Part shown: piece after piece, positions 3,196-51,762 of the stretch
Layout: each line of letters begins with the position of its first letter
How positions within the stretch are numbered: position 1 is the first letter of the stretch
Assembly (NCBI RefSeq): GCF_058153355.1
Contig: NZ_CM177019.1
DNA length: 64,000 nt
Direction: 5' to 3' (one strand)
Notes under the pieces: generated by a model
Databases searched by the model: none
Told to the model about the DNA's origin: nothing
What the model saw: the letters and a program-made list of their open reading frames with translations, nothing else
Position numbers and translations under genes: made by a program

Positions 3196-4356
3196 TTATG
3201 CCGGATCGACTGGTACCACATTCTCGCTTGGGTAACAGCCCAGGACTTTCATCGAGCGAGTGATTTCACCTAGCTCTTTCAACGCCTGTTGCATTTCCGC
3301 TGATTCCAGATTGGCCTGAATATCCAGATAAAACATCTCTTCCCACGGGTTTCCGTGAATCGGGCGTGATTCCAGACGGGTCATAATCAGATTGTGGTTG
3401 CGCAGTACCAGCAACGCTTCAACCAGCGCACCAGCTTGTTGTCCGGTCGCCATTAACAACGTCGTTTTCGCCGGAACCTGGTCAGAAACGTTAATGGCTT
3501 TACGTGCCAACACCACAAATCGGGTGAAGTTTTGTCGCTGATTCGCTTCAATATGCTCCAGTACCTGCAAACCGTACAAAGTGCCGCCAGCTTCGCTTCC
3601 CAACGCAGCAACATGCGGTGATTTTGCCTGTGCAACCTTTTCCATTGCCGCAGACGTACTTTCGGTATATTCAATCTTCCAGTGCGGATAACGATTAAGG
3701 AATTTGCTGCATTGCTGGAATGGCTGCGGATGGCTGTAGACCGTATTAATGGTGGATAAATCAGTAGTGCCGGAGACCAACAAACAATGATCGATAGTTA
3801 ACGTCATCTCGCCAACAATCGACAAACTGGTATGTTGCAGCAGATCGTAAACGTCGTTTATGGCACCGGAGCTGGTATTTTCAATCGGTACGACGGCATA
3901 GTCGGCCTGGCCGGTTTCCACCTGATTAAAAATATCGGCAAATTTGGCGCAGCCACTTTCAATGAATTGCTCAAAGTGACGCGCAGCGTACTGACGAGCG
4001 GCAAGATGTGAATAGGAGCCTTTGGGGCCGAGAAAAGCGATGCGTGCTGAGTGCGGATTAATTTTATTGAGATGTTGCTGGAGCAGTGCCTGCTGAGTTA
4101 ATACGGAATCTTCAATGATGAGCTGGAACAGGCGAGTAATGTAATGGGCGTCCAGATGGTGCGCTTTACCGAGCGTAATTAATCTTTCCAGCAAATCGCG
4201 TTCGCGATCAATATCACGTACCGGGCGATGAGAGAGCAGTTTGGCTTTTCCCACCTCGACGGCCAGTTCGCGCCGCTCTGCCAGTAATGCTAATAATTTT
4301 TCATCCAGCGCGCTGATTTTCTCTCGCAGCGCCAGTAACGGGTTTTCCGATGTCAT
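3196..4356 (-). CDS. pheA: Chorismate mutase / prephenate dehydratase
   Basis: 386-aa ORF recognised as PheA; preceded by pheL leader and attenuator. Confidence 0.96.
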
Positions 4357-4380
4357 AGTGTTGCCTTTTTGTTATCAATA

Positions 4381-4409
4381 AAAAAGGCCCCCCGGTTTGG
4401 GAGGCCTTA
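4381..4409 (-). terminator. pheA attenuator hairpin
   Basis: Minus strand reads GGCCTCCCAAACCGGGGGGCC followed by TTTTTT, between pheL and pheA. Confidence 0.85.
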
Positions 4410-4454
4410 TTGTTCGTCTTCGCATTCTGTTTCACACGACGAAACGCCTCCCAT

Positions 4455-4502
4455 TCAGGGGAAGGTAAAAAAGAATGCGAAGAAAAACGGTGTGTGTTTC
4501 AT
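4455..4502 (-). CDS. pheL: pheA leader peptide (Phe-rich)
   Basis: 15-codon ORF MKHTPFFFAFFFTFP with seven Phe codons, upstream of the attenuator hairpin. Confidence 0.85.
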   Translation of the reverse strand: MKHTPFFFAFFFTFP

Positions 4503-4605
4503 GTTTGTTTCCTTAAGTGACTTCAGTACAGTACCCGTACTGTTTTCACGCTGTCAACAAAAAACGCGCCCGAAGGCGCGTTGGCGATACACTCAATATA
4601 AAGGA

Positions 4606-5001
<396 letters not shown>

Positions 5002-5138
5002 TCAAAATGTGTGATGGAAATCTCATAATTTTGTCACTTTTTGTCAACGAATCTTTTTTGTGAGAAATCGCAGGAAGAGGTGTTTTTTTACTTGAGGAAT
5101 ATCTCAAAGCGAGCCATATTTGATGAGATCGATAGTGA

Positions 5139-5918
5139 CTAAATCGCTTCAGTTTCACAACTAACAGAATAAAAAAACGGCAGCTCAAGGCTGTAATGCC
5201 AGTCAGTTAAGCAACTGACTGGCTCTTTTTCGGGGCTGTGGGGTATTTCCAGGGCCTCTCCTTTACCACTCTCGGGAAGGCCCTTTCCCTTCTTGTCGGT
5301 AATTTCACTGGTTGTCCCATACTTGCAAGATCGCGCATCAGCTCCGGTATACGTCCCGGTGAAGCGCATGGCGTCCGTCATCGACGTCAGCAGATGGCTG
5401 GTCAGTTCCATCTGGCAGACCATTTTGACCTGCGGGTAGAGCGCCGGGTTCTCGGCATGTGTCTGGCGGGGGAAGGCTGCATCGTTCTCTGGTGTATCCG
5501 GTGTGCGCCAGAACACACCATCGATGGCCAGCAGGGTCAGGCCGCACCAGTGCGGATGCGGCGTGGCGTTATGCCAGAGCTGCGCTGTTTTCGTGAACAC
5601 GCGGCGGACAGCCTCACTTCCCAGGCGCTGGCGGGCCTGAATAACGGCACTGGGGGCAACGAAGGGGCGATTGCCCGGCAGCATGATGTCCAGGCGATTC
5701 ACAATCTGGTGAAGAGGTTCTTTACGCTCAAGCGCCATGCCAACAATACACCAGACCATCATTTCGAGGGGAAGACGGCGCTTGCGTAGCGTTACAGTAC
5801 CTGATTCGGCAAGGCAACGAGAGATGAGTTCGGGGTCGAGGTAATCCCCCAGAGAAGTCAGTGGGTTACGCAGAGAATCGTAACGGGATACCAGATCAAG
5901 AGCCTGTCCAATGTGCAT
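5139..5918 (-). pseudogene. IS4-type DDE transposase, truncated and fused to flanking sequence
   Basis: N-terminus MHIGQALDLVSRYDSL... and AIDG motif typical of IS4 transposase; ORF runs through the right IS end into host DNA, C-terminal half missing. Confidence 0.7.
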
Positions 5919-6002
5919 AAAAAAATCCGGAAACGAGTGAGCGTTTCCGGATTCTTACACAGGCACTGGATCGGTCAACTGATCCTTAACTGATCGGCAT
6001 TA
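5194..6002. mobile_element. IS4-family insertion sequence, internally deleted derivative (809 bp)
   Basis: Imperfect terminal inverted repeats TAATGCC(A/G)...CAGTTAAG at both ends; identical 13-bp direct repeats CAGCTCAAGGCTG at 5181-5193 and 6003-6015. Confidence 0.75.
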
Positions 6003-6038
6003 CAGCTCAAGGCTGCCGTTTTGTGTTTCAGGTTTCTG

Positions 6039-6776
6039 TTATGTATTGCTGCTGTTTGCGGCGATGATTTTCGCTACTTTTTCAGCTTGCGCATTCATCT
6101 GCATCTGACGGTATGCATTTTCCATCAGCGGCAGCGCATCACGCGTAGCCTGGGTATCCGGATAGTCGCGCAACATGCCTTCTACGCGGTTAACGACAGC
6201 AACCCATGCACCACGTTCTGTATAATACTCGGCAACGGAGTATTCATATTTCGCCAGACGATCTTTCAGGAATACCAGACGTTTGGTGGCATCGGTGGTG
6301 TACTGACTGTTCGGATAGCCGCGCACCAGTTTGGAAAAGTCACTAAACGCAGCTCGTGCATGTTGAGGATCGCGATCGCTACGGTCAACGCCAAAGAACC
6401 CTTGCAGCGCACTGTCATCCAGCGCCATATTGGTCAGGCCACGCATGTACATGACATAATCGATATTCGGATGGGTCGGGTTAAGGCGAATAAAACGATC
6501 GATGGCAGCCTGTGCTAACGGCAAATCGGCGTTTTTATAGTAGGCGTAGATGAGATCCAGCTGCACCTGCTGCGAATACGGACCAAACGGATAGCGATTA
6601 TCTAACGCTTCCAGTTGCGTTATTGCCTGTCTCCAGTTACCGTCCTGCAGCTTTTGTTGTGCAGTCGCGTAAATTTCATTTGGCGGATTATCAGGTACTT
6701 CTTCCTTTGACCCCGAGCAACCCGCCAAAAACAGGCTTAGTGTGGCGGCTGCCACCAGATATTTCATGCGCGTCAT
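6039..6776 (-). CDS. bamD: Outer membrane protein assembly factor BamD (TPR lipoprotein)
   Basis: 245-aa ORF, lipobox LFLAGCSG, recognised as BamD/YfiO. Confidence 0.95.
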
Positions 6777-29953: not shown

Positions 29954-30084
29954 GTTCTACCTCTGTGTGGGGCGCTGATTATAGACGTTACGGCTGCAAT
30001 CTTCATCTGTTTGTATGGATATCGCTTCTCGGGTATTGTTCTCACCCGGTGCTATCGCCGTTTTTCCTGCAAGGTTTTATTTTC

Positions 30085-32471
<2,387 letters not shown>

Positions 32472-32725
32472 TCATGTTGTGCGATTAAACACCTGCTATT
32501 TTAATTTTTGTTACAGGGGCTAAACAGACCGAATCACGGCGACGAGAAAACGAGAAGTTACTGGCTGGCGAAGGATTAGGTGGTGAAATAAAAAGGCCGT
32601 TGGGTTACTCTTCAGGCAGTTAAATGGGCATTTCTACACAGATAATGCGATGTTCAGATTCTGTAGACTTATAATGATAGATAATGATCCGTCTACAGCA
32701 TGACAAACAAAAACAGATGCGTTAC

Positions 32726-32755
32726 GGAACTTTACAAAAACGAGACACTCTAACC
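32726..32755 (+). promoter_or_regulatory. Sigma-E dependent promoter of rpoE
   Basis: GGAACTT at 32726-32732 and TCTAA at 32749-32753 match the sigma-E -35/-10 consensus. Confidence 0.6.
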
Positions 32756-32835
32756 CTTTGCTTGCTCAAATTGCAGCTAATGGAGTGGCGTTTCGATAGC
32801 GCGTGGAAATTTGGTTTGGGGAGACTTTACCTCGG

Positions 32836-33411
32836 ATGAGCGAGCAGTTAACGGACCAGGTCCTGGTTGAACGGGTCCAGAAGGGAGATCAGAAAGCCTT
32901 TAACTTACTGGTAGTGCGCTATCAGCATAAAGTGGCGAGTCTGGTTTCCCGCTATGTGCCGTCGGGTGATGTTCCCGATGTGGTACAAGAAGCTTTTATT
33001 AAAGCCTATCGTGCGCTGGATTCGTTCCGGGGAGATAGCGCTTTTTATACATGGCTGTATCGGATTGCTGTAAATACAGCGAAAAATTACCTGGTTGCTC
33101 AGGGACGCCGTCCACCTTCCAGTGATGTGGATGCCATTGAAGCTGAAAACTTCGAAAGTGGCGGCGCGTTGAAAGAAATTTCGAACCCTGAGAACTTAAT
33201 GTTGTCAGAAGAACTGAGACAGATAGTTTTCCGAACTATTGAGTCCCTCCCGGAAGATTTACGCATGGCAATAACCTTGCGGGAGCTGGATGGCCTGAGC
33301 TATGAAGAGATAGCCGCTATCATGGATTGTCCGGTAGGTACGGTGCGTTCACGTATCTTCCGAGCGAGGGAAGCTATTGATAACAAAGTTCAACCGCTTA
33401 TCAGGCGTTGA
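32836..33411 (+). CDS. rpoE: RNA polymerase sigma-E factor
   Basis: ORF trimmed to MSEQLTDQVLVERVQKGD start (191 aa). Confidence 0.97.
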   Translation: MSEQLTDQVLVERVQKGDQKAFNLLVVRYQHKVASLVSRYVPSGDVPDVVQEAFIKAYRALDSFRGDSAFYTWLYRIAVNTAKNYLVAQGRRPPSSDVDAIEAENFESGGALKEISNPENLMLSEELRQIVFRTIESLPEDLRMAITLRELDGLSYEEIAAIMDCPVGTVRSRIFRAREAIDNKVQPLIRR

Positions 33412-33443
33412 CGATAGCGGGATACTGGATAAGGGTATTAGGC

Positions 33444-34094
33444 ATGCAGAAAGAACAACTTTCCGCTTTAATGGATGGCGAAACGCTGGATAGTGAGCTG
33501 CTTAACGAACTGGCTCATAACCCAGAAATGCAGAAAACCTGGGAAAGCTATCACTTAATCCGTGACTCAATGCGGGGTGATACTCCCGAGGTGCTCCATT
33601 TCGATATCTCTTCACGCGTAATGGCCGCCATTGAAGAAGAGCCAGTACGTCAACCGGCGACACTGATCCCAGAGGCCCAGCCTGCGCCGCATCAATGGCA
33701 GAAAATGCCATTCTGGCAGAAAGTACGTCCATGGGCAGCACAGCTTACCCAAATGGGCGTAGCAGCATGCGTATCGCTTGCAGTTATCGTTGGCGTCCAG
33801 CACTATAATGGGCAATCTGAAACGTCCCAGCAGCCCGAAACGCCAGTATTTAATACACTGCCGATGATGGGTAAAGCCAGCCCGGTTAGCCTGGGAGTAC
33901 CTTCTGAAGCGACTGCAAATAATGGTCAACAGCAGCAGGTACAGGAGCAGCGTCGTCGCATTAATGCAATGTTGCAGGATTACGAACTGCAACGTCGACT
34001 CCACTCTGAACAGCTTCAGTTTGAGCAGGCCCAAACACAGCAAGCCGCTGTACAGGTGCCAGGAATTCAAACTTTAGGAACGCAATCGCAGTAA
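33444..34094 (+). CDS. rseA: Anti-sigma-E factor RseA
   Basis: ORF trimmed to MQKEQLSALMDGE start (216 aa); single TM segment, Gln-rich C-terminus. Confidence 0.95.
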   Translation: MQKEQLSALMDGETLDSELLNELAHNPEMQKTWESYHLIRDSMRGDTPEVLHFDISSRVMAAIEEEPVRQPATLIPEAQPAPHQWQKMPFWQKVRPWAAQLTQMGVAACVSLAVIVGVQHYNGQSETSQQPETPVFNTLPMMGKASPVSLGVPSEATANNGQQQQVQEQRRRINAMLQDYELQRRLHSEQLQFEQAQTQQAAVQVPGIQTLGTQSQ

Positions 34095-44994: not shown

Positions 44995-46385
44995 GCTATA
45001 CCTCTCTTTTTCATGGCATCGAGCAGGATGTCCTGCACTGTTCGTTTTGAGTTGCGCCGCTCCATCACCATTTCGTCCATAGTGTCGGCCGCAATAATGT
45101 GGTGAATAAATACCGGACGATTGTGTCCGGCCTGTATCTGCCTGGTGGGGCCGATACGTTCAATAATTTGCTGATACTGCTCCAGGTCCCACCAGTGTGA
45201 GAAAAATACTAGTATGTTTCCGCCGTCCTGCATGTTCAGACCGTGGCCCGCGCTGGCTGGGTGTGCAAAGAGAACAGGAATCTTTCCGGAATTCCAGTCG
45301 CGCAGTGTCTGTGGATCTTGGTCGAGGTGACGACCGCGAGGGAATGCTTTAAGCAAGCGTTCAAGATCGTGTTTCCAGTGATAAGCAACCAGCACAGGTG
45401 CGCCAGCTGCTTCGGTCAGTATGCTGTCCAGCGCCTGCAGTTTGGTGTCATGCAGTTCTGACCAACTTCCGGTGTCGTCTGTGTATACTGCGCCACTGGC
45501 GATTTGCAGACACTTCAGTGTCTTTGCCGCGGCGTTTGGTGCTTCGATGCCTTCGCCATTCAGCTCGAGGAACATTTCCTTTTCCATTTCACGATACTGC
45601 TGACGGGCCTTCGGCGGCATATCCACGCGGATTACGTTATGGATGGGGTCTTTGATATCGAACCAGTCGGCCGCATCCAGCGAGAGGGTCACATCGGCTA
45701 ATGCTCGCTGTATTTCAGCCTGTGAGTGAGCAAACGGCTCCAGTTTGGTCCAGCTCTGCCCTGGAAACTGTATCGAGTTGAACCAGCGTGAGGTAAACGC
45801 GCCGTAAGTGCGTCCGAGACGTTGCCCCTGGTCCACAAACCACGCTTGTCCCCACAAATCTACCAGGCCGTTCGGTGCTGGCGTCCCGGTGAGATTTATC
45901 CAGCGCCGGACATACTTATGCGCCACTTTGCCCAGCGCCGCCGCGCGCTTACCACCACCTCGCAGCCGGAAGGATTTTAGCCGGGTGCTTTCATCCGGAA
46001 TGACAGTACCGAACGGCCATCGTTCTCCCAATTCTTCAACCAGCCAGACAAGGTTATCGTAGTTGATGGTGAACACGCTTGCGTTGCTGTTCGCCAGCGC
46101 CGTAGAGCGCGCTTTGGCATTACCAACAATCGGCTGCACCTCGATATTGCGTAAATGCCCCCACTTCACTGCTTCATCCGGCCAGGTGTTTGCTGCAACA
46201 CGTAGCGGTGCGAGGACCAGTGCGGGGCGTGTTTCTGCCCCTGCCATAAAGAGATCTTCCAGCGCAGTGAGCGTTGCCACGGTTTTACCCATCCCCATAC
46301 CTGCCCAGATGTTGCCGCGCATGATGTCGATTTGGTGATTGATGATCAGGTCTTGATACGGGCGGGGGGTGAAAATTTGTCCCAT
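44991..46385 (-). CDS. SNF2/DEAD-like phage helicase
   Basis: 464-aa ORF with Walker A GMGMGKT and DEST motif II. Confidence 0.8.
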   Translation of the reverse strand: MGQIFTPRPYQDLIINHQIDIMRGNIWAGMGMGKTVATLTALEDLFMAGAETRPALVLAPLRVAANTWPDEAVKWGHLRNIEVQPIVGNAKARSTALANSNASVFTINYDNLVWLVEELGERWPFGTVIPDESTRLKSFRLRGGGKRAAALGKVAHKYVRRWINLTGTPAPNGLVDLWGQAWFVDQGQRLGRTYGAFTSRWFNSIQFPGQSWTKLEPFAHSQAEIQRALADVTLSLDAADWFDIKDPIHNVIRVDMPPKARQQYREMEKEMFLELNGEGIEAPNAAAKTLKCLQIASGAVYTDDTGSWSELHDTKLQALDSILTEAAGAPVLVAYHWKHDLERLLKAFPRGRHLDQDPQTLRDWNSGKIPVLFAHPASAGHGLNMQDGGNILVFFSHWWDLEQYQQIIERIGPTRQIQAGHNRPVFIHHIIAADTMDEMVMERRNSKRTVQDILLDAMKKRGIA

Positions 46386-46428
46386 AGTGTTTTAGCCAGT
46401 AGGGCGCGGGTAATCCCGCGCAATAATG

Positions 46429-47235
46429 TCAGATTAGATCGGTGTAGTAGGTGAAGTTGCCAAACTGCGGATGTGTCCAGCGCTTGCGGTTACCTTTCGG
46501 CGGTGTCGATTCGTTTAACAGCTTTTGAGCTGCTTGTTCGATCGCTGGGAGCTTAACGAGCAATCCCCGAACACCGGTGTCTGAACGTACCGGTATCTTG
46601 GCGAAGCCGATCAATTTCCGGCATGTTGAATCAGATAAACCTGTTTTCCATGCTGCTTTGCTGACGGGGACATATTCACCGTTACTGTGTGGTTGTGACT
46701 CTCTGACTTGTTGTTTTAAGTCTTCTACCCAGTTGGTTTCATGTCCCGGAGTTGAAAGCGTTACGTTTTGAACTTGCCGGGGAGCCATCACTTCGACAAT
46801 TGCTTTCATCGTGGCGGATGCCGTAGCTTCTGCAACGACACGGGCAAACTGAACGGTGTTGTCGTTTACCTGAATTGCAGGAGCTGGCACCGGTAATGAT
46901 GCCGGACGAGGTTGCTCTAATTCAATCTTCATCGCCTGCCACTGTTCGATGAGTGCCAGCCGGCGTTTTGCGTCGTAACCGGTGACGAGAGTCATGGAAA
47001 GATTTTCATCAAGCCAAATCTCGTCGATGACATCACGTCCCTTGTATTCTTTGCGCTTGATAATAAATCCTTTAAAATCATCATCATCCAAATCTGGACT
47101 ATAGATTTGTAACTGTTCAAGCATAGCCAGAATATCCCGTACAACATGCTTATGCTGTTTTCCAGTGACTTCTGCAATTTTCCGGCTGCCCATCATTGGT
47201 TGCTTGGTATCGTTTATCAGTGTTAAAGTATTCAT
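46429..47235 (-). CDS. Rha-family phage regulatory protein / antirepressor-like
   Basis: ORF 46429..47277 trimmed to MNTLTLINDT start with GGAGAA SD; SRKIAEVTGKQHKHVVRDI matches Rha N-terminal motif. Confidence 0.7.
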   Translation of the reverse strand: MNTLTLINDTKQPMMGSRKIAEVTGKQHKHVVRDILAMLEQLQIYSPDLDDDDFKGFIIKRKEYKGRDVIDEIWLDENLSMTLVTGYDAKRRLALIEQWQAMKIELEQPRPASLPVPAPAIQVNDNTVQFARVVAEATASATMKAIVEVMAPRQVQNVTLSTPGHETNWVEDLKQQVRESQPHSNGEYVPVSKAAWKTGLSDSTCRKLIGFAKIPVRSDTGVRGLLVKLPAIEQAAQKLLNESTPPKGNRKRWTHPQFGNFTYYTDLI

Positions 47236-47294
47236 GCTGTATTCTCCATTCAGTAAAAGATGCGCTGGTAGCTGCAACTATCAGCGCGTTTTGT

Positions 47295-47471
47295 TTATTC
47301 ATCCCACGGCTTGTTTGCAGCTTCCCTTGCGGCCTGCTGCGCAAAATAAATCAATTCAAAAGCTAACTGCTCTCCTTTTTCCAGCGAACTGAGAAGTCTT
47401 GCTGTTTCCAGCATGTCCGCGATATACCCGAAAATATCTGCCTGATGTAACTGCGTGATCTGAATAGCCAT
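47295..47471 (-). CDS. Hypothetical small protein (58 aa)
   Basis: Unlisted ORF MAIQITQLHQADIFGYIADMLETARLL... directly upstream of Rha gene, divergent from RHH gene. Confidence 0.35.
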   Translation of the reverse strand: MAIQITQLHQADIFGYIADMLETARLLSSLEKGEQLAFELIYFAQQAAREAANKPWDE

Positions 47472-47489
47472 AGCTTTAGCCTTGTTTTG

Positions 47490-47569
47490 TACTCATTGTG
47501 AGGACTTTATTTATTAGTACTCACAATGAGGCTTGAAGTCAACATGTTTGTGAGGCATGTTGTCCTCAC
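47490..47569. promoter_or_regulatory. Operator-like palindromes in divergent promoter region
   Basis: TACTCATTGTGAGGA (47490-47504) and its inverse TACTCACAATGAGGC (47518-47532), plus GTGAGG-N8-CCTCAC (47550-47569). Confidence 0.6.
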
Positions 47570-47587
47570 ACTTTCAAGGGATCATAT

Positions 47588-47917
47588 ATGAGCAAAAGAG
47601 ACGACCCGCAGTTGAGGGTACGCATACCAGAATTGCTAAAAGAGGCTTTGGAGAAGAAAGCACGGGCTAATAAGAGAACACTGACCTCTGAGATCGTTAG
47701 CCGGTTGGAATCTACTATTCTTCAGGACAAATTACTTCATACATCTAGGGGGTTTGAGGAAGCTGCTGATGAGATTCTCATACTCAGGGATCTTCTCGAG
47801 AAACTTAAAACAACGTACCATCGAGAGTATCAGGCCGAATGGGTTTATGAAAACAAATACGAGCTTATTGAAGCGATGGAAAAACTTAAGAAGTTGCTAA
47901 ATCCTGAGAATGAATAG
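47588..47917 (+). CDS. Arc/MetJ-type ribbon-helix-helix DNA-binding protein
   Basis: 109-aa ORF; N-terminal SKRDDPQLRVRIPELLKEALEKKARANKRTLTSEIVSRL is Arc-like RHH. Confidence 0.7.
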   Translation: MSKRDDPQLRVRIPELLKEALEKKARANKRTLTSEIVSRLESTILQDKLLHTSRGFEEAADEILILRDLLEKLKTTYHREYQAEWVYENKYELIEAMEKLKKLLNPENE

Positions 47918-48062
47918 TGGATTCATCCTCTAAACTTTTACGTAACCGCCGGGTGATTTCGGCGGTTAGTGTTCTGTCGTTTTCTCTGGAAATTTTTTCC
48001 AGTGCGTCTTTCAAGTCTTGCGGGATGCGTACCCGCAATTGTGGGTCATCACGTTTACTCAC
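47886..48062 (-). CDS. Second Arc-like RHH protein (paralog, GTG start)
   Basis: Unlisted 58-codon ORF VSKRDDPQLRVRIPQDLKDALEKISRENDRTLTAEITRRL; GGAGG SD; GTG overlaps VRR-NUC stop; 3' end antisense to 47588..47917. Confidence 0.5.
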   Translation of the reverse strand: MSKRDDPQLRVRIPQDLKDALEKISRENDRTLTAEITRRLRKSLEDESTIHSQDLATS

Positions 48063-48355
48063 AATATCCCCTCCAGATTTTTGCTATCTAATACCACCAC
48101 GCTAAAGCCCAGCTCGCGCAGCCGCTCGTGCTCGCGCAACTGGTCGGCGCGTGGTGCTTTGCCGGGTGCTTTGCATTCAACGAAAACAAGACGGCCGCCG
48201 GGTAGCAGAACAATGCGATCCGGTACCGAGCGGCGACCGGGAGATACGAACTTAAAGGCCACACCGCCAGCCTTTTTCACTTCAGCGACGAGGTGCTTTT
48301 CGATAAGGCTTTCACGTTCATAGGCCATCTGAATCCCACTCTTCAAAAAGCACAT
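48059..48355 (-). CDS. VRR-NUC domain nuclease
   Basis: 98-aa ORF with VAFKFVSPGRRSVPDRIVLLPGGRLVFVECKAPGK core typical of VRR-NUC. Confidence 0.75.
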   Translation of the reverse strand: MCFLKSGIQMAYERESLIEKHLVAEVKKAGGVAFKFVSPGRRSVPDRIVLLPGGRLVFVECKAPGKAPRADQLREHERLRELGFSVVVLDSKNLEGIL

Positions 48356-48617
48356 TCAATTCCAGTTTCTCTGCCAACGCGTTTTCTGCACGTGCGCCAG
48401 CAGAGTACTCCCACTCTTTGAGCATATAAATCGTATCGGCACAGCGAAGCATTGCGAGGCAGATGTCCATATACTGAGCCTGTGTCAAACCATTGGGTAA
48501 AGTTGCGGGGTTAAGCACAACATATCCCTTGTCCGTTAGCCTCTTTGCTGCGGAATGAAAAGCCGGGCGGTTAAATTGCTCGTAACCGCTCATCGGCCCG
48601 GCAACGTAAACGATCAT
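48318..48617 (-). CDS. DUF4406 / nucleoside 2-deoxyribosyltransferase-like protein
   Basis: 99-aa ORF MIVYVAGPMSGYEQFNRPAF..., resembling the deoxyribosyltransferase-like fold family. Confidence 0.55.
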   Translation of the reverse strand: MIVYVAGPMSGYEQFNRPAFHSAAKRLTDKGYVVLNPATLPNGLTQAQYMDICLAMLRCADTIYMLKEWEYSAGARAENALAEKLELNVLFEEWDSDGL

Positions 48618-48829
48618 TCTTCGACCGCCTTACGCTTTTCACGCATATTCTGCATCAGGCAAAAATCAGATCTGCGTTCACTCCATTCCTGATTCAGTTC
48701 GTGATGTGATTCGCGGTTGGCTTTTGCCCAGACCTTCGCTGCCCGGTCATATTCGCCGGATTGTTCAAGTCGCAAAGCCTCCCTTGCAGCCCTGTAATAA
48801 AGTGGATTGTCCCGGTATTTAAATGACAT
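48614..48829 (-). CDS. Hypothetical phage protein
   Basis: 71-aa ORF in operon between polymerase and DUF4406 gene; no recognisable motif. Confidence 0.4.
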   Translation of the reverse strand: MSFKYRDNPLYYRAAREALRLEQSGEYDRAAKVWAKANRESHHELNQEWSERRSDFCLMQNMREKRKAVEE

Positions 48830-48834
48830 AGGAG

Positions 48835-51762
48835 TTAATCCTTACGGTAGTGGTACGCCTCAAAACCGCCAGCGTTCAGTGGGATATCGGGCGCCCATTC
48901 GGGGTTAGTGGAGAGAAGCGCGGAAAGCGCTTTATCGTTGAAATCTTCTGTGTCAGGTGCTTCGGTGATCACCTCGTCGTGTACCGTCAGCACAATGCTG
49001 TAACCGGCATCTTCGATAAGCGGCATGTTTCCGGCCAGAACGTCGCGGGCGGCCGCCTGGGTGACGTTCTCTACCAGCTTTCCGCCGTAGGTTTTGAGTC
49101 GTTGCCATTTACGCGAATAAGAGTTAACACCCATGTAGGTGATATTCCCTTTTTCGATAACCGGAGACGGGTAGCATACAGCGCGTCCGGATGGTAGCTG
49201 TATGCGCAGCCACGCGCCATCGCGGCGGATTTTAAGATAACCGCAATACAATGTTTTTTGCGGTGTGGCGATTGCAGTGCGGATGGTGCGCTCCAGTTCG
49301 TACCAGAAATCGCAGGTCGCCGGGTGCGCCCTGCGCCAGAGACGTTTAAGTGAGTCGCAGGCGATAAATACCCGTTCAGAAAGGCCGTAGGTTGACTTAC
49401 GTTTAACCGATTCGTAGTACCAGCTTTTCGCCTCGCGGATAACATCGCGGGGAATGTTTGGCAGTGCGGCGTTCGCCAGCTCGTCGAGATCGAGACTGTA
49501 AACCAGTGCAAAAGTGATGAAGGCCGACACACCACCACCGTACCCGCAGTTGTGAACGATTAAATGTCCTGAGTCGGTTTTAATCGTGAATCTGTTTCGA
49601 GGCCCCGCATGTGCAATGTCGTAAACATCGCTCCAGCTCGTCGATACGTTTTTGCAGGTCTGCGATTTTTCTTCTGTTGCGGTTATTGTCTGCTTTGGAG
49701 ACGAACTGGATATTACCCGGTTCGTAGCCTTTGTTATTGTCGATGCGATCCATTTCCAACTTTGGGTCATTAAACCCTTTGATTTCCCTGACGTGTAGCA
49801 AAAAAGCTCTTTTATCTTCCTGCCATAGCTGACAAACGTAGATCCCCCGACCGCCGTAGTTGTGAAACAACCTGTTGGTGGGTTTATGGCAACGGCTGAT
49901 TGCGGCAGACAATCGGTTAAGTAGCCTGCGACGGGTTTCGTCATCTGCAATAGCATCCGCATAGCATAAGAATTTTTTACGATACTCGTTATGCTTTTTC
50001 TTTGCGCAAATGTTACATCGGGTACTTTTTCCTTTAAGGAGATTGCTGATTGTTGCGGTGTGAGGCATTGCACCACATTTGCATTTGACAAGTATCCTTC
50101 GGTCTTTTCCGGGTACTTTTTCCAGTTCTTTGATAACGGTAAGTTCTCCGAAGCAAGTTCCAGGCTTTGGTGAAGCGTATTTTTGTTTAAAGCGATAAGG
50201 TTTGCCAGCTTCCATCCAGTAGGGGTTAGCACCTGGTGATCCGGGGTCATTTTTGCTCCGTCCAGTGATATTAAGGCTTTGTACCCCCTGTAAATCAGTC
50301 CTTCGTGTTTTACCCATTCTTCTCCGTCCCATAACAAATCCGCGCCCGAAATACTAACAAGCGGCTTATAGCCTTTATCGGTGAGCACTAAAGTATCCGG
50401 AGCTATGCAAGCCAATTCCAGCACTTTACCTATCTGGCGCTGGTCTTTGGTGACGCGCTCAACTTCAATTCCGTAAGCTTTTGCATACGCCAGTTTATAT
50501 AAGTCCGGACCCGTTCCGGCGTCGTACTCTCTGAATGCATTCAGTTTCCATTCTTCTCCCGCCAGCCATGCCAGCATACGGCCTTCAATGTTCGACAAGT
50601 CACTTACCACCAGTTTTTTACCTGTTGGCGCGATAATGCAGCCACGTAACGCTGAACTGGTTAGTTCCATGATATTGTCAAACAGCAGGTCTGCACATCC
50701 GGCTTTCAGTGCTTCGATGCCTTCGTCTATTTGTTCCTGTTTTAGTGAAGGGCGGGGAAGATTCTGGGGCTGGAATAGCCGTCCGGCCCAGCGCCCGGTA
50801 CGTGACGCCCCGCAGAACTGTAGCGTACCGCGTAAGCGCCCGTCGTGGCTTACGCCTTTCATCAGTGCCTTGTATTTACTGGTGCTGGTAGTACTGGCTT
50901 GCTGGCGGATAGCCAGCAGTTCTTTCACGGCAGATGGTAAATCGGGGTCGGCTATACGACGTTCCAGGGTACTGCGTTGCATGTCTGGTAGCTCCACACC
51001 GTAGGATTCAACGATGTGCTTAATCAACGCGTCCCGTTGTGTGGCTGCCTGCACTTCGCCATCAGTCATTTCCTGTGTACGCTTTGCCAGGCGTTTTTGC
51101 TCCTGGTCTACCGCTTCGATCGCAGCGCGCGCGAGTTGAATGTCCATGCAGACGCCCCGGTCGTTGATCTGCTGATCACGATGCCAGAGCGCCAGTTCTG
51201 TCCCCTGATAATTCCACTTCGGCAGACGTTTATAGACTTCGCGCATTGCCTCGATATCCAGCCCGGCGTAAGCAACAAAGCGCCGCCATTCTTCCGGGTG
51301 GGTTTTACTGGTGGCCCGACGCAGTTTGCTGTTTTTCGGGCGTGGCTTACAGAACAGCTGGATCAGCGCTTTACCTTCTTTGTCCTTCGCTTTGTCTTGC
51401 GGGACGCCGAGTATTTCGCAGAGTTCCCCCAGAGACCCCGGGAGGCCGTGCGCCAGCGCCTGCACCATTGTGTCGCGCCAACGTTCGACTGGCGGTGCCA
51501 GTCGCGGCATTGCATAACGCAGGACGGTGCGGTCGAAGTGAGAGTTATGAAAATAAAGCAGGGTCTCAGGGGCTGCGATTGCTTCGTATAAGCCGTGTGG
51601 AATACCACCACCGGCAGTGATATCCCACACGTTTACGGGCCCGTCGTTGATAGCCCATGCGAACAGCATCACTTCAACGCCTTCGGCATACGCATGGGTA
51701 CCGTTCGTAATAGGGATTTCGCAATAGGTTTCCAGGTCGCCCCATAGAATGTTTTCAGACAA
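48835..51762 (-). CDS. Family-A DNA polymerase with 3'-5' exonuclease domain, interrupted by an in-frame intein
   Basis: 975-aa ORF; motif B reads [10 protein letters not shown][intein][10 protein letters not shown]; motif C VHDEV; N-terminal exonuclease domain. Confidence 0.85.
49549..50409 (-). other. Intein (287 codons) within polymerase motif B
   Basis: Starts [10 protein letters not shown], block [10 protein letters not shown], ends HLIVHN followed by Cys; central ~185 residues lack any endonuclease motif in frame. Confidence 0.75.
49580..50332 (-). CDS. HNH/His-Me finger-like endonuclease ORF in alternative frame inside the intein
   Basis: 250-codon ORF offset from polymerase frame; CKCG...CNIC zinc-finger pair and [27 protein letters not shown] resembling HNH motif. 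Confidence 0.45.

What the first reader, a model, noticed from the sequence alone, without database searches (positions are those of the whole stretch)
5181..6015. Internally deleted IS4 copy with intact 13-bp target-site duplication between raiA and bamD
An 809-bp element bounded by IS4-like inverted ends (TAATGCC...CAGTTAAG) is flanked by identical 13-bp direct repeats CAGCTCAAGGCTG, indicating a genuine transposition event. The transposase ORF is truncated and runs out through the element end, and a full IS4 is about 1.4 kb, consistent with an internal deletion. It is a non-autonomous remnant that could still be mobilised in trans and may affect raiA/bamD expression.
Basis: partly seen in the sequence, partly recalled or inferred. 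Interest (0 to 1): 0.45.

Follow-up and report, generated by a model that had tools for sequence, protein, structure and literature searches.

The report
Decayed IS4 relic in bamD terminator
This is an ordinary dead copy of the well-known E. coli insertion sequence IS4, sitting in the transcription terminator between bamD and raiA; two internal deletions have disabled it, and it appears to be an old inherited marker of Escherichia cryptic clade I rather than a mobile element.

Summary
An 809-bp element (window 5194-6002) has both 18-bp IS4 ends and is flanked by a perfect 13-bp duplication (5181-5193, 6003-6015). That 13-mer occurs once in unoccupied sites.

It is IS4 (98.9-99.5% identical to the K-12 copy) with two internal deletions, not one.
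- The first removes 336 bp between the longest exact direct repeat in IS4 (14 bp).
- The second removes 281 bp between an imperfect 12-bp repeat.
- Each removes one catalytic residue (D209, E314). What remains is the N-terminal domain followed by a frameshifted tail that runs out of the element.

The target is the bamD intrinsic terminator hairpin. This site is an IS4 hot spot: about 401 of 5,426 complete E. coli genomes are occupied, in both orientations and on two target alleles.

The doubly deleted form is in exactly 18 genomes. These are the window's 18 nearest relatives (cryptic clade I). Each has a single copy at this locus and no other IS4 on the chromosome. A form carrying only the 336-bp deletion sits at the same site in EPEC E2348/69 and 12 other genomes.

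I found no sign of mobilisation in trans or of domestication. Verdict: a known element and an ordinary fossil.

The parts
5181..5193 (.). Target-site duplication, raiA-proximal copy (CAGCTCAAGGCTG). It is followed on the - strand by CCG plus the U7 tract of the original bamD terminator.
6003..6015 (.). Target-site duplication, bamD-proximal copy.
5194..6002 (-). Defective IS4, 809 bp. It consists of IS4 nt 1-618, 955-978 and 1260-1426.
   Evidence: 99.5%, 97.7% and 98.9% identity to K-12 IS4 over the three segments.
5985..6002 (-). IS4 left inverted repeat (IRL), identical to the K-12 copy.
5194..5211 (+). IS4 right inverted repeat (IRR), identical to the K-12 copy. It forms part of the 11-bp end hairpin at 5198-5223.
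5385..5398 (-). Junction of deletion 1 (336 bp, in frame). This is the single surviving copy of the 14-bp direct repeat GCCATCTGCTGACG (IS4 605-618 / 941-954).
   Evidence: It is the longest exact direct repeat in IS4.
5361..5367 (-). Junction of deletion 2 (281 bp, frameshifting). The crossover lies within GCGCTTC of the imperfect repeat GCGCTTC(C/A)CCGG (IS4 972-983 / 1253-1264).
   Evidence: family D11
5139..5918 (-). Truncated transposase ORF, 259 aa. It holds IS4 residues 1-178, then 8 residues from the middle segment, then a frameshifted tail that reads out of the element.
   Evidence: Nterm_IS4 E=2.8e-33, DDE_Tnp_1 only profile positions 3-52 of 200. NF033592 positions 3-154 of 332.
5921..5956 (-). 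IS4 internal hairpin (15 predicted pairs) followed by U7, just upstream of the transposase ATG. It points in the bamD direction and probably acts as the substitute terminator for bamD transcripts.
   Evidence: inverted repeat I3.: -21.2 kcal/mol, z = -5.7. Its role as a terminator is inferred.
5951..5978 (-). Promoter-like site (TTGACC, 16-nt spacer, AAGAAT) near IRL, probably the transposase promoter. It is a consensus match only.
4606..4947 (-). raiA, the downstream neighbour. Its 246-bp upstream region (4948-5193) is intact.
6039..6776 (-). bamD, the upstream neighbour. The insertion split its intrinsic terminator.

Best explanation
An IS4 element transposed into the hairpin of the bamD intrinsic terminator and duplicated the 13-bp core of that hairpin. 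The copy then decayed in place. Recombination or replication slippage between short direct repeats inside IS4 removed first 336 bp and then 281 bp. These deletions took out the second Asp (D209) and the Glu/YREK motif (E314) of the DDE active site and shifted the reading frame. The resulting 809-bp element cannot make transposase. It has been inherited vertically as a single-copy fossil in the lineage the window comes from (Escherichia cryptic clade I), collecting point mutations and, in some strains, a nested IS200. It has no function of its own. bamD transcripts probably now end at the IS4 internal hairpin plus U-tract; that step is inferred. The raiA promoter region is undisturbed.
For: Identity and anatomy.
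- The three segments are collinear with K-12 IS4 at 97.7-99.5% identity, and both 18-bp ends are intact.
- The deletion junctions lie exactly at direct repeats: the 14-bp repeat, which is the longest exact repeat in IS4, and an 11/12 repeat spaced 281 bp apart.
- Pfam keeps Nterm_IS4 but only positions 3-52 of 200 of DDE_Tnp_1. The intact protein matches 3-200.
- D209 and E314 map inside the deleted segments.

Genuine insertion.
- The reconstructed empty site exists as a natural allele.
- It folds as a hairpin of -17.7 kcal/mol followed by U7.

Decay in place.
- Full-length IS4 sits at the same site with the same duplication and orientation in SCU-116.
- A 1089-bp form with deletion 1 only has the same duplication and orientation in E2348/69 and 12 other genomes.
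- That form shares the variant bases 68C, 89T, 102C, 109T, 1310C and 1311A with most of the clade copies examined.

Age and vertical descent.
- The double junction is in exactly 18 of 5,426 genomes. All 12 checked individually lie next to raiA.
- Those 18 are exactly the 18 best matches to the window in nadB-rpoE, 25 kb away (98.0-99.0% identity, next best 96.3%).
- Two of them are named cryptic clade I strains in PMC10100065.
- The copies differ from the window's by 5-11 positions in 809.

No selection on the ORF.
- The retained ORF shows 8 nonsynonymous against 5 synonymous polymorphisms.
- One strain has an early frameshift, and at least three have an IS200 nested next to the start codon.
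Against: - The order 'insertion, then deletion 1, then deletion 2, all at this site' is inferred from living intermediates, not shown. Deletion 2 recurs independently elsewhere, so deletion 1 could also be recurrent. In that case the E2348/69 form would be a parallel case rather than an ancestor.
- The E2348/69 form has the variable dinucleotide of the two inverted repeats swapped relative to the window's copy.
- The window's copy carries the canonical bases 89A, 102T and 109C, unlike every other relic examined. This needs gene conversion or recombination and is not explained.
- Termination of bamD transcripts at the IS4 hairpin is a folding prediction. The simple terminator scan did not list this hairpin on the - strand.
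Confidence: 0.9

Rival explanations
1. It is a non-autonomous but still mobile element (MITE-like) that a full-length IS4 moves around in trans.
For: Both 18-bp inverted repeats are identical to functional IS4. The last 115 nt and the first 39 nt are unchanged.
Against: - The junction-spanning 76-nt query finds the double-deleted form in only 18 of 5,426 genomes, one place each. All 12 checked individually lie next to raiA.
- None of those 18 chromosomes has any other IS4 sequence (places_in_record = 1).
- The copies have diverged from one another by 0.6-1.4%. That fits old vertical descent, not recent copying.
- There is no other IS4 DNA in the window.
Confidence: 0.04
2. The truncated ORF is a domesticated protein: the IS4 N-terminal DNA-binding domain kept as an inhibitor of IS4 transposition or as a regulator.
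For: The Nterm_IS4 domain is intact (E=2.8e-33). The promoter-like site and start codon are retained. The ORF is open for 259 codons in the window.
Against: - Eight nonsynonymous against 5 synonymous polymorphisms within residues 1-178.
- A 1-bp deletion gives a 41-codon ORF in strain 2017-02-2CC.
- An IS200 is inserted between the promoter region and the start codon in Z0117EC0005, E200086 and AST85.
- The C-terminal 73 residues are out-of-frame read-through into flanking DNA.
- The carrier chromosomes have no IS4 to inhibit.
Confidence: 0.03
3. The element was already deleted when it arrived: a defective IS4 was mobilised into this site rather than decaying in place.
For: IS4 hits this site repeatedly, so a separate arrival is conceivable. 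Deletion 2 also exists at another locus (tdk-adhE).
Against: - The tdk-adhE copy has a different crossover point in the same repeat (GCGCTTC-C-CCGGG against GCGCTTC-A-CCGGG) and is only about 97% identical to the window's copy. It is not the donor.
- The deletion-1-only form at this very site has the same duplication and orientation and shares variant bases. This supports stepwise decay in place.
- No other copy of either deleted form was found elsewhere.
Confidence: 0.04

Closest known systems
IS4 (insG element of E. coli K-12; IS4 subgroup of the IS4 family)
   Same: The 18-bp inverted repeats are identical, and all retained DNA is 97.7-99.5% identical. The 13-bp target duplication falls within the 10-13 bp given for the subgroup (PMC2266710). 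The target is a palindromic hairpin flanked by A-rich and T-rich runs, like the other IS4 sites examined here.
   Different: It lacks 617 of 1426 bp (nt 619-954 and 979-1259). It retains D133 but lacks D209 and the Y-R-E-K block with E314. It cannot encode a transposase.
IS4 relic of EPEC E2348/69 at raiA-bamD (1089 bp, annotated as a frameshifted IS4 family transposase)
   Same: Same locus, same 13-bp duplication, same orientation and same 336-bp deletion junction. It shares the variant bases 68C, 1310C and 1311A with the window's copy, and also 89T, 102C and 109T with the other clade copies.
   Different: It still has the 281-bp segment. Its inverted-repeat positions 8-9 and 1418-1419 are swapped relative to the window's copy. 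It sits in strains outside the window's clade: none of them is among the 18 nearest genomes.
IS4 relic between tdk and adhE (1145 bp; this type of junction is present in about 1,000 E. coli genomes)
   Same: It lost the same 281-bp segment between the same imperfect repeat. It also lies in a terminator-like hairpin and shares the old-variant bases 68C and 1311A with the window's copy.
   Different: It is at a different locus and keeps the 336-bp segment. The crossover point within the repeat differs, so it is an independent event. It is about 97% identical to the window's copy. Only one such copy was examined in detail.
MITEs and other non-autonomous IS derivatives
   Same: Intact ends with no working transposase.
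   Different: It is single-copy, occupies one locus, shows no evidence of spread, and has no helper element in the related chromosomes.

Membership tests
IS4 (defective derivative of the K-12-type element) | Terminal inverted repeats of IS4 (18 bp, TAATGCC..TCAGTTAAG) at both ends. | tested here: met
   Both are identical to the K-12 copy.
IS4 (defective derivative of the K-12-type element) | Internal DNA collinear with, and nearly identical to, reference IS4. | tested here: met
   Three collinear segments at 99.5%, 97.7% and 98.9% identity, with nothing foreign between them.
IS4 (defective derivative of the K-12-type element) | Target-site duplication of about 10-13 bp. | tested here: met
   13 bp. 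The range comes from PMC2266710. The single-copy empty site was verified.
Autonomous IS4-family element | A single ORF encoding a transposase with a complete D..D..E triad and the Y(2)R(3)E(6)K motif. | tested here: not met
   Only D133 remains. D209 and E314/YREK lie in the deleted segments, and the DDE_Tnp_1 match falls from positions 3-200 to positions 3-52.
Mobilisable non-autonomous element (MITE-like) | Several copies at different loci, each with its own target duplication. | tested here: not met
   There are 18 occurrences in 5,426 genomes, one per genome. All 12 checked individually lie next to raiA.
Mobilisable non-autonomous element (MITE-like) | A helper element supplying transposase in the same genome. 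| tested here: inconclusive
   None on the chromosomes of the 18 related genomes and none in the 64-kb window. The rest of the source genome and its plasmids cannot be seen.
Intrinsic (rho-independent) terminator as the target (bamD terminator) | A G+C-rich hairpin followed by a U-tract downstream of the gene. | tested here: met
   The reconstructed site folds at -17.7 kcal/mol (z = -4.7) and is followed by U7. Termination itself was not measured.

The most novel reading that the evidence does not exclude
IS4 may be in effect a terminator-hairpin-specific insertion sequence. In 8 of the 9 reconstructed target sites examined, covering 8 distinct loci, the 11-14-bp duplication is centred on the loop of a G+C-rich hairpin, usually with A-rich and T-rich flanks. 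The bamD terminator alone has been hit at least three separate times and is occupied in about 7% of complete E. coli genomes. Dead copies also follow a reproducible decay path, because the same two short repeats inside IS4 delete repeatedly and independently. The 809-bp end product is fixed in all 18 sampled complete genomes of the window's clade (cryptic clade I) and could serve as a simple diagnostic marker for that hard-to-recognise clade.
Probability: 0.5. Interest if true: 0.3.

Novelty: already known. Interest (0 to 1): 0.15.

Why it matters
It matters little for function, because this is a dead copy of one of the first insertion sequences ever described. NCBI's pipeline already labels the same relic 'IS4 family transposase, frameshifted' in related genomes.

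Three side results have modest value.
1. The 809-bp relic is present in all 18 nearest complete genomes and in none of the other 5,408. Its double junction is therefore a candidate PCR or in-silico marker for Escherichia cryptic clade I, which a 2023 study describes as hard to tell from E. coli proper (PMC10100065).
2. The bamD terminator is a recurrent IS4 landing site. This illustrates how the element's preference for terminator hairpins keeps insertions out of genes.
3. The same microhomology-mediated deletions recur, giving a small natural example of predictable IS decay.

Tried and rejected
- A 72-nt query across junction 1 gave no usable count. The tool joined the two halves found in full-length IS4, so nearly every IS4 carrier scored 100%. 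A 47-nt query solved this.
- I used window 45000-49000 to place the strain, but that stretch is prophage DNA and carries no lineage signal. The nadB-rpoE stretch worked.
- Literature searches for IS4 at raiA/bamD or in terminators found nothing specific. Only the general statements on duplication length and target specificity in PMC2266710 were usable. My recollection that the 1980s IS4 papers proposed an AAA-N20-TTT target rule could not be checked. The pattern fits 5 of the 9 reconstructed sites.
- The consensus terminator scan did not list the IS4 internal hairpin on the - strand, although folding shows a strong hairpin followed by U7. I therefore treat its terminator role as inferred.
- Rejected: a single deletion (one search shows three segments).
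- Rejected: the 13-mer as part of a native repeat.
- Rejected: an assembly artefact, since the same structure is in 18 independent complete genomes.
- Rejected: the tdk-adhE relic as donor of deletion 2, because the crossover point differs and identity is about 97%.
- No structure prediction or large protein-database search was run, because DNA identity to IS4 settles what the element is.

Full report
**1. The observation**

- Two perfect copies of CAGCTCAAGGCTG lie at 5181-5193 and 6003-6015. There is no further exact copy in the window, and 0 of 100 shuffles gave as many matches.
- Immediately inside them are the only two IS4-type ends in the window. TAATGCCAGTCAGTTAAG lies at 5194-5211 (+) and TAATGCCGATCAGTTAAG at 5985-6002 (-).
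- The element is 809 bp.
- The neighbours are RaiA (4606-4947, -) and BamD (6039-6776, -). Both score far above the curated NCBIfam cut-offs.
- The gene order pheA-pheL-raiA-[IS4]-bamD-rluD matches annotated relatives.

**2. What the element is**

Against the 1426-bp IS4 of K-12 (L004:301-1726), the element aligns in three collinear pieces:

| Element nt | IS4 nt | Identity |
|---|---|---|
| 1-618 | 1-618 | 99.5% |
| 605-647 | 941-983 | 97.7% |
| 636-809 | 1253-1426 | 98.9% |

The overlaps are the junction repeats. The missing 617 bp are therefore two deletions, not one.

- Deletion 1 removes 336 bp between two copies of GCCATCTGCTGACG (IS4 605-618 and 941-954) and stays in frame. This is the longest exact direct repeat in IS4; the next longest is 10 bp.
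- Deletion 2 removes 281 bp between GCGCTTCCCCGG and GCGCTTCACCGG (IS4 972-983 and 1253-1264). The crossover lies inside GCGCTTC, and the deletion shifts the frame.
- In window coordinates, the surviving repeat copies are at 5385-5398 and 5361-5367.

The intact 442-aa transposase matches Nterm_IS4 and the whole DDE_Tnp_1 profile (positions 3-200). The window's 259-aa ORF keeps Nterm_IS4 (E=2.8e-33) but only profile positions 3-52 of DDE_Tnp_1.

By motif, D133 is retained. D209 lies in deletion 1, and the Y-x2-R-x3-E314-x6-K block lies in deletion 2. The residue spacing agrees with the family signature in PMC2266710. The element cannot make an active transposase. The ORF tail is out of frame and reads through the element end to 5139.

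**3. The target and the duplication**

Removing the element and one repeat copy gives AAAACGGCAGCCTTGAGCTGCCGTTTTTTT on the bamD strand. This is a hairpin of -17.7 kcal/mol followed by U7, which is the bamD intrinsic terminator. The reconstructed 64-mer occurs at 100% identity with a single copy of the 13-mer in genomes such as ATCC 11775 and Nissle 1917. The duplication is therefore genuine.

I reconstructed nine IS4 target sites, covering eight loci: two alleles of raiA-bamD, eno-ygcG, tdk-adhE, galP-metK, a prophage tail region, gspK-glcA, a plasmid site and the K-12 site. Eight of the nine are G+C-rich hairpins, with the 11-14-bp duplication centred on the loop. This agrees with the 'spectacular apparent insertion specificity' reported for the IS4 subgroup (PMC2266710).

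**4. A hot spot**

- The site is occupied in the window's orientation in 331 of 5,426 complete genomes.
- It is occupied in the opposite orientation in 70 more.
- On the allele with an extra G in the loop, both repeat copies are 14 bp (L008, L012). On the window's allele they are 13 bp.
- There were therefore at least three independent insertions.

**5. Distribution and age of the 809-bp form**

- A 76-nt query spanning both junctions finds 18 genomes, one place each.
- All 12 checked individually lie next to raiA.
- A 4-kb stretch of nadB-rpoE, 25 kb away, has exactly those 18 genomes as its best matches (98.0-99.0% identity). All the rest start at 96.3%.
- Two of the 18, EC42405 and 2013C-4282, are listed as cryptic clade I strains in PMC10100065.
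- The relic is thus present in every sampled complete genome of the window's clade and in none outside it.
- The copies differ from the window's by 5-11 positions in 809.
- Those 18 chromosomes carry no other IS4 sequence, and neither does the window.

**6. Intermediates and recurrence**

A 47-nt query across junction 1 finds 13 further genomes, including EPEC E2348/69. Three were fetched, and each carries a 1089-bp form with deletion 1 only. It lies at the same site with the same 13-bp duplication and the same orientation. It shares 68C, 89T, 102C, 109T, 1310C and 1311A with most of the clade copies examined. The simplest reading is stepwise decay in place, from 1426 to 1089 to 809 bp.

This reading is not proven. 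About a thousand genomes carry a junction of the deletion-2 type. The copy I examined lies between tdk and adhE and has a different crossover point (GCGCTTC-C-CCGGG), so that deletion arose independently. Deletion 1 might be recurrent in the same way.

**7. No sign of function**

- Within retained codons 1-178 the copies show 8 nonsynonymous and 5 synonymous polymorphisms.
- One strain has an early frameshift.
- At least three strains have an IS200-family element nested beside the start codon.

This is pseudogene behaviour.

For the neighbours, the native bamD hairpin is lost at the bamD-proximal junction. About 50-80 nt further on the same strand, IS4's own hairpin (15 pairs, -21.2 kcal/mol) is followed by U7. 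It probably ends bamD transcripts, but that is an inference. The 246-bp raiA upstream region is intact and nearly invariant across carriers and non-carriers.

**8. Verdict**

The element is a known insertion sequence in a decayed state, already annotated as a frameshifted IS4 transposase in related genomes. Interest is low. The clade-marker property, the terminator hot spot and the repeatable deletions are useful side notes.

Noticed in passing
window 30000-34000 (nadB-trmN-rpoE-rseA): The window comes from a divergent lineage. The best match in 5,426 complete E. coli genomes is only 99.0%, the next 17 are 98.0-98.3%, and then there is a sharp drop to 96.3%. Two of the top 18 are published cryptic clade I strains.
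   Followed up: yes
window 45000-49000: Prophage DNA (SNF2-related protein, Rha and Arc regulators, VRR-NUC/PDDEXK nuclease, DUF4406). It is found in only 158 of 5,426 genomes. The best matches, at 97.8%, include isolates from cattle and bovine faeces.
   Followed up: no
window 5894-5914 (IS4 nt 89-109): The window's relic has the canonical IS4 bases 89A, 102T and 109C. Every other relic copy examined (clade I, E2348/69 type, tdk-adhE) has T, C and T. Three clustered reversions suggest a gene-conversion patch from a canonical IS4 that is not visible in the window.
   Followed up: partly
L014, L015, L018 (Z0117EC0005, E200086, AST85), locus ~1290-1984: An IS200/IS605-family element is nested in the left end of the IS4 relic, at the hairpin just before the transposase ATG. 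In E200086 the DNA to the left is rpoS instead of bamD, which implies a rearrangement at this IS.
   Followed up: partly
L019-L021 (E2348/69 type), element ends; also L006 and L008: The variable dinucleotide of the IS4 inverted repeats (positions 8-9 and 1418-1419) occurs in all four combinations among copies. Canonical IS4 has GA at the left end and AG at the right. The E2348/69 relic has them swapped, the tdk-adhE relic has AG at both ends, and RM14723 has GA at both ends. No explanation was tested.
   Followed up: no
L016, L017 (EC42405, MFDS1022581), locus ~3458-5076: In these clade relatives, P2-like prophage genes (Com, Ogr/Delta-like, DNA methyltransferase, Hok/Gef) directly follow raiA in place of pheL-pheA. 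The window has pheA there.
   Followed up: no
window 3600-4356 (pheA) compared with L002 and L003: pheA differs at 39 of 663 positions from clade relatives 2013C-4282 and WL297, but at only 1-3 of 757 from R32_14_1F and Z0117EC0005. This suggests a recombined pheA segment within the clade.
   Followed up: no
L012 (LR-62-2), bamD: A full-length IS4 at the same site sits next to a very divergent bamD allele (32 of 462 differences from the window) and a different sequence downstream of the terminator.
   Followed up: no
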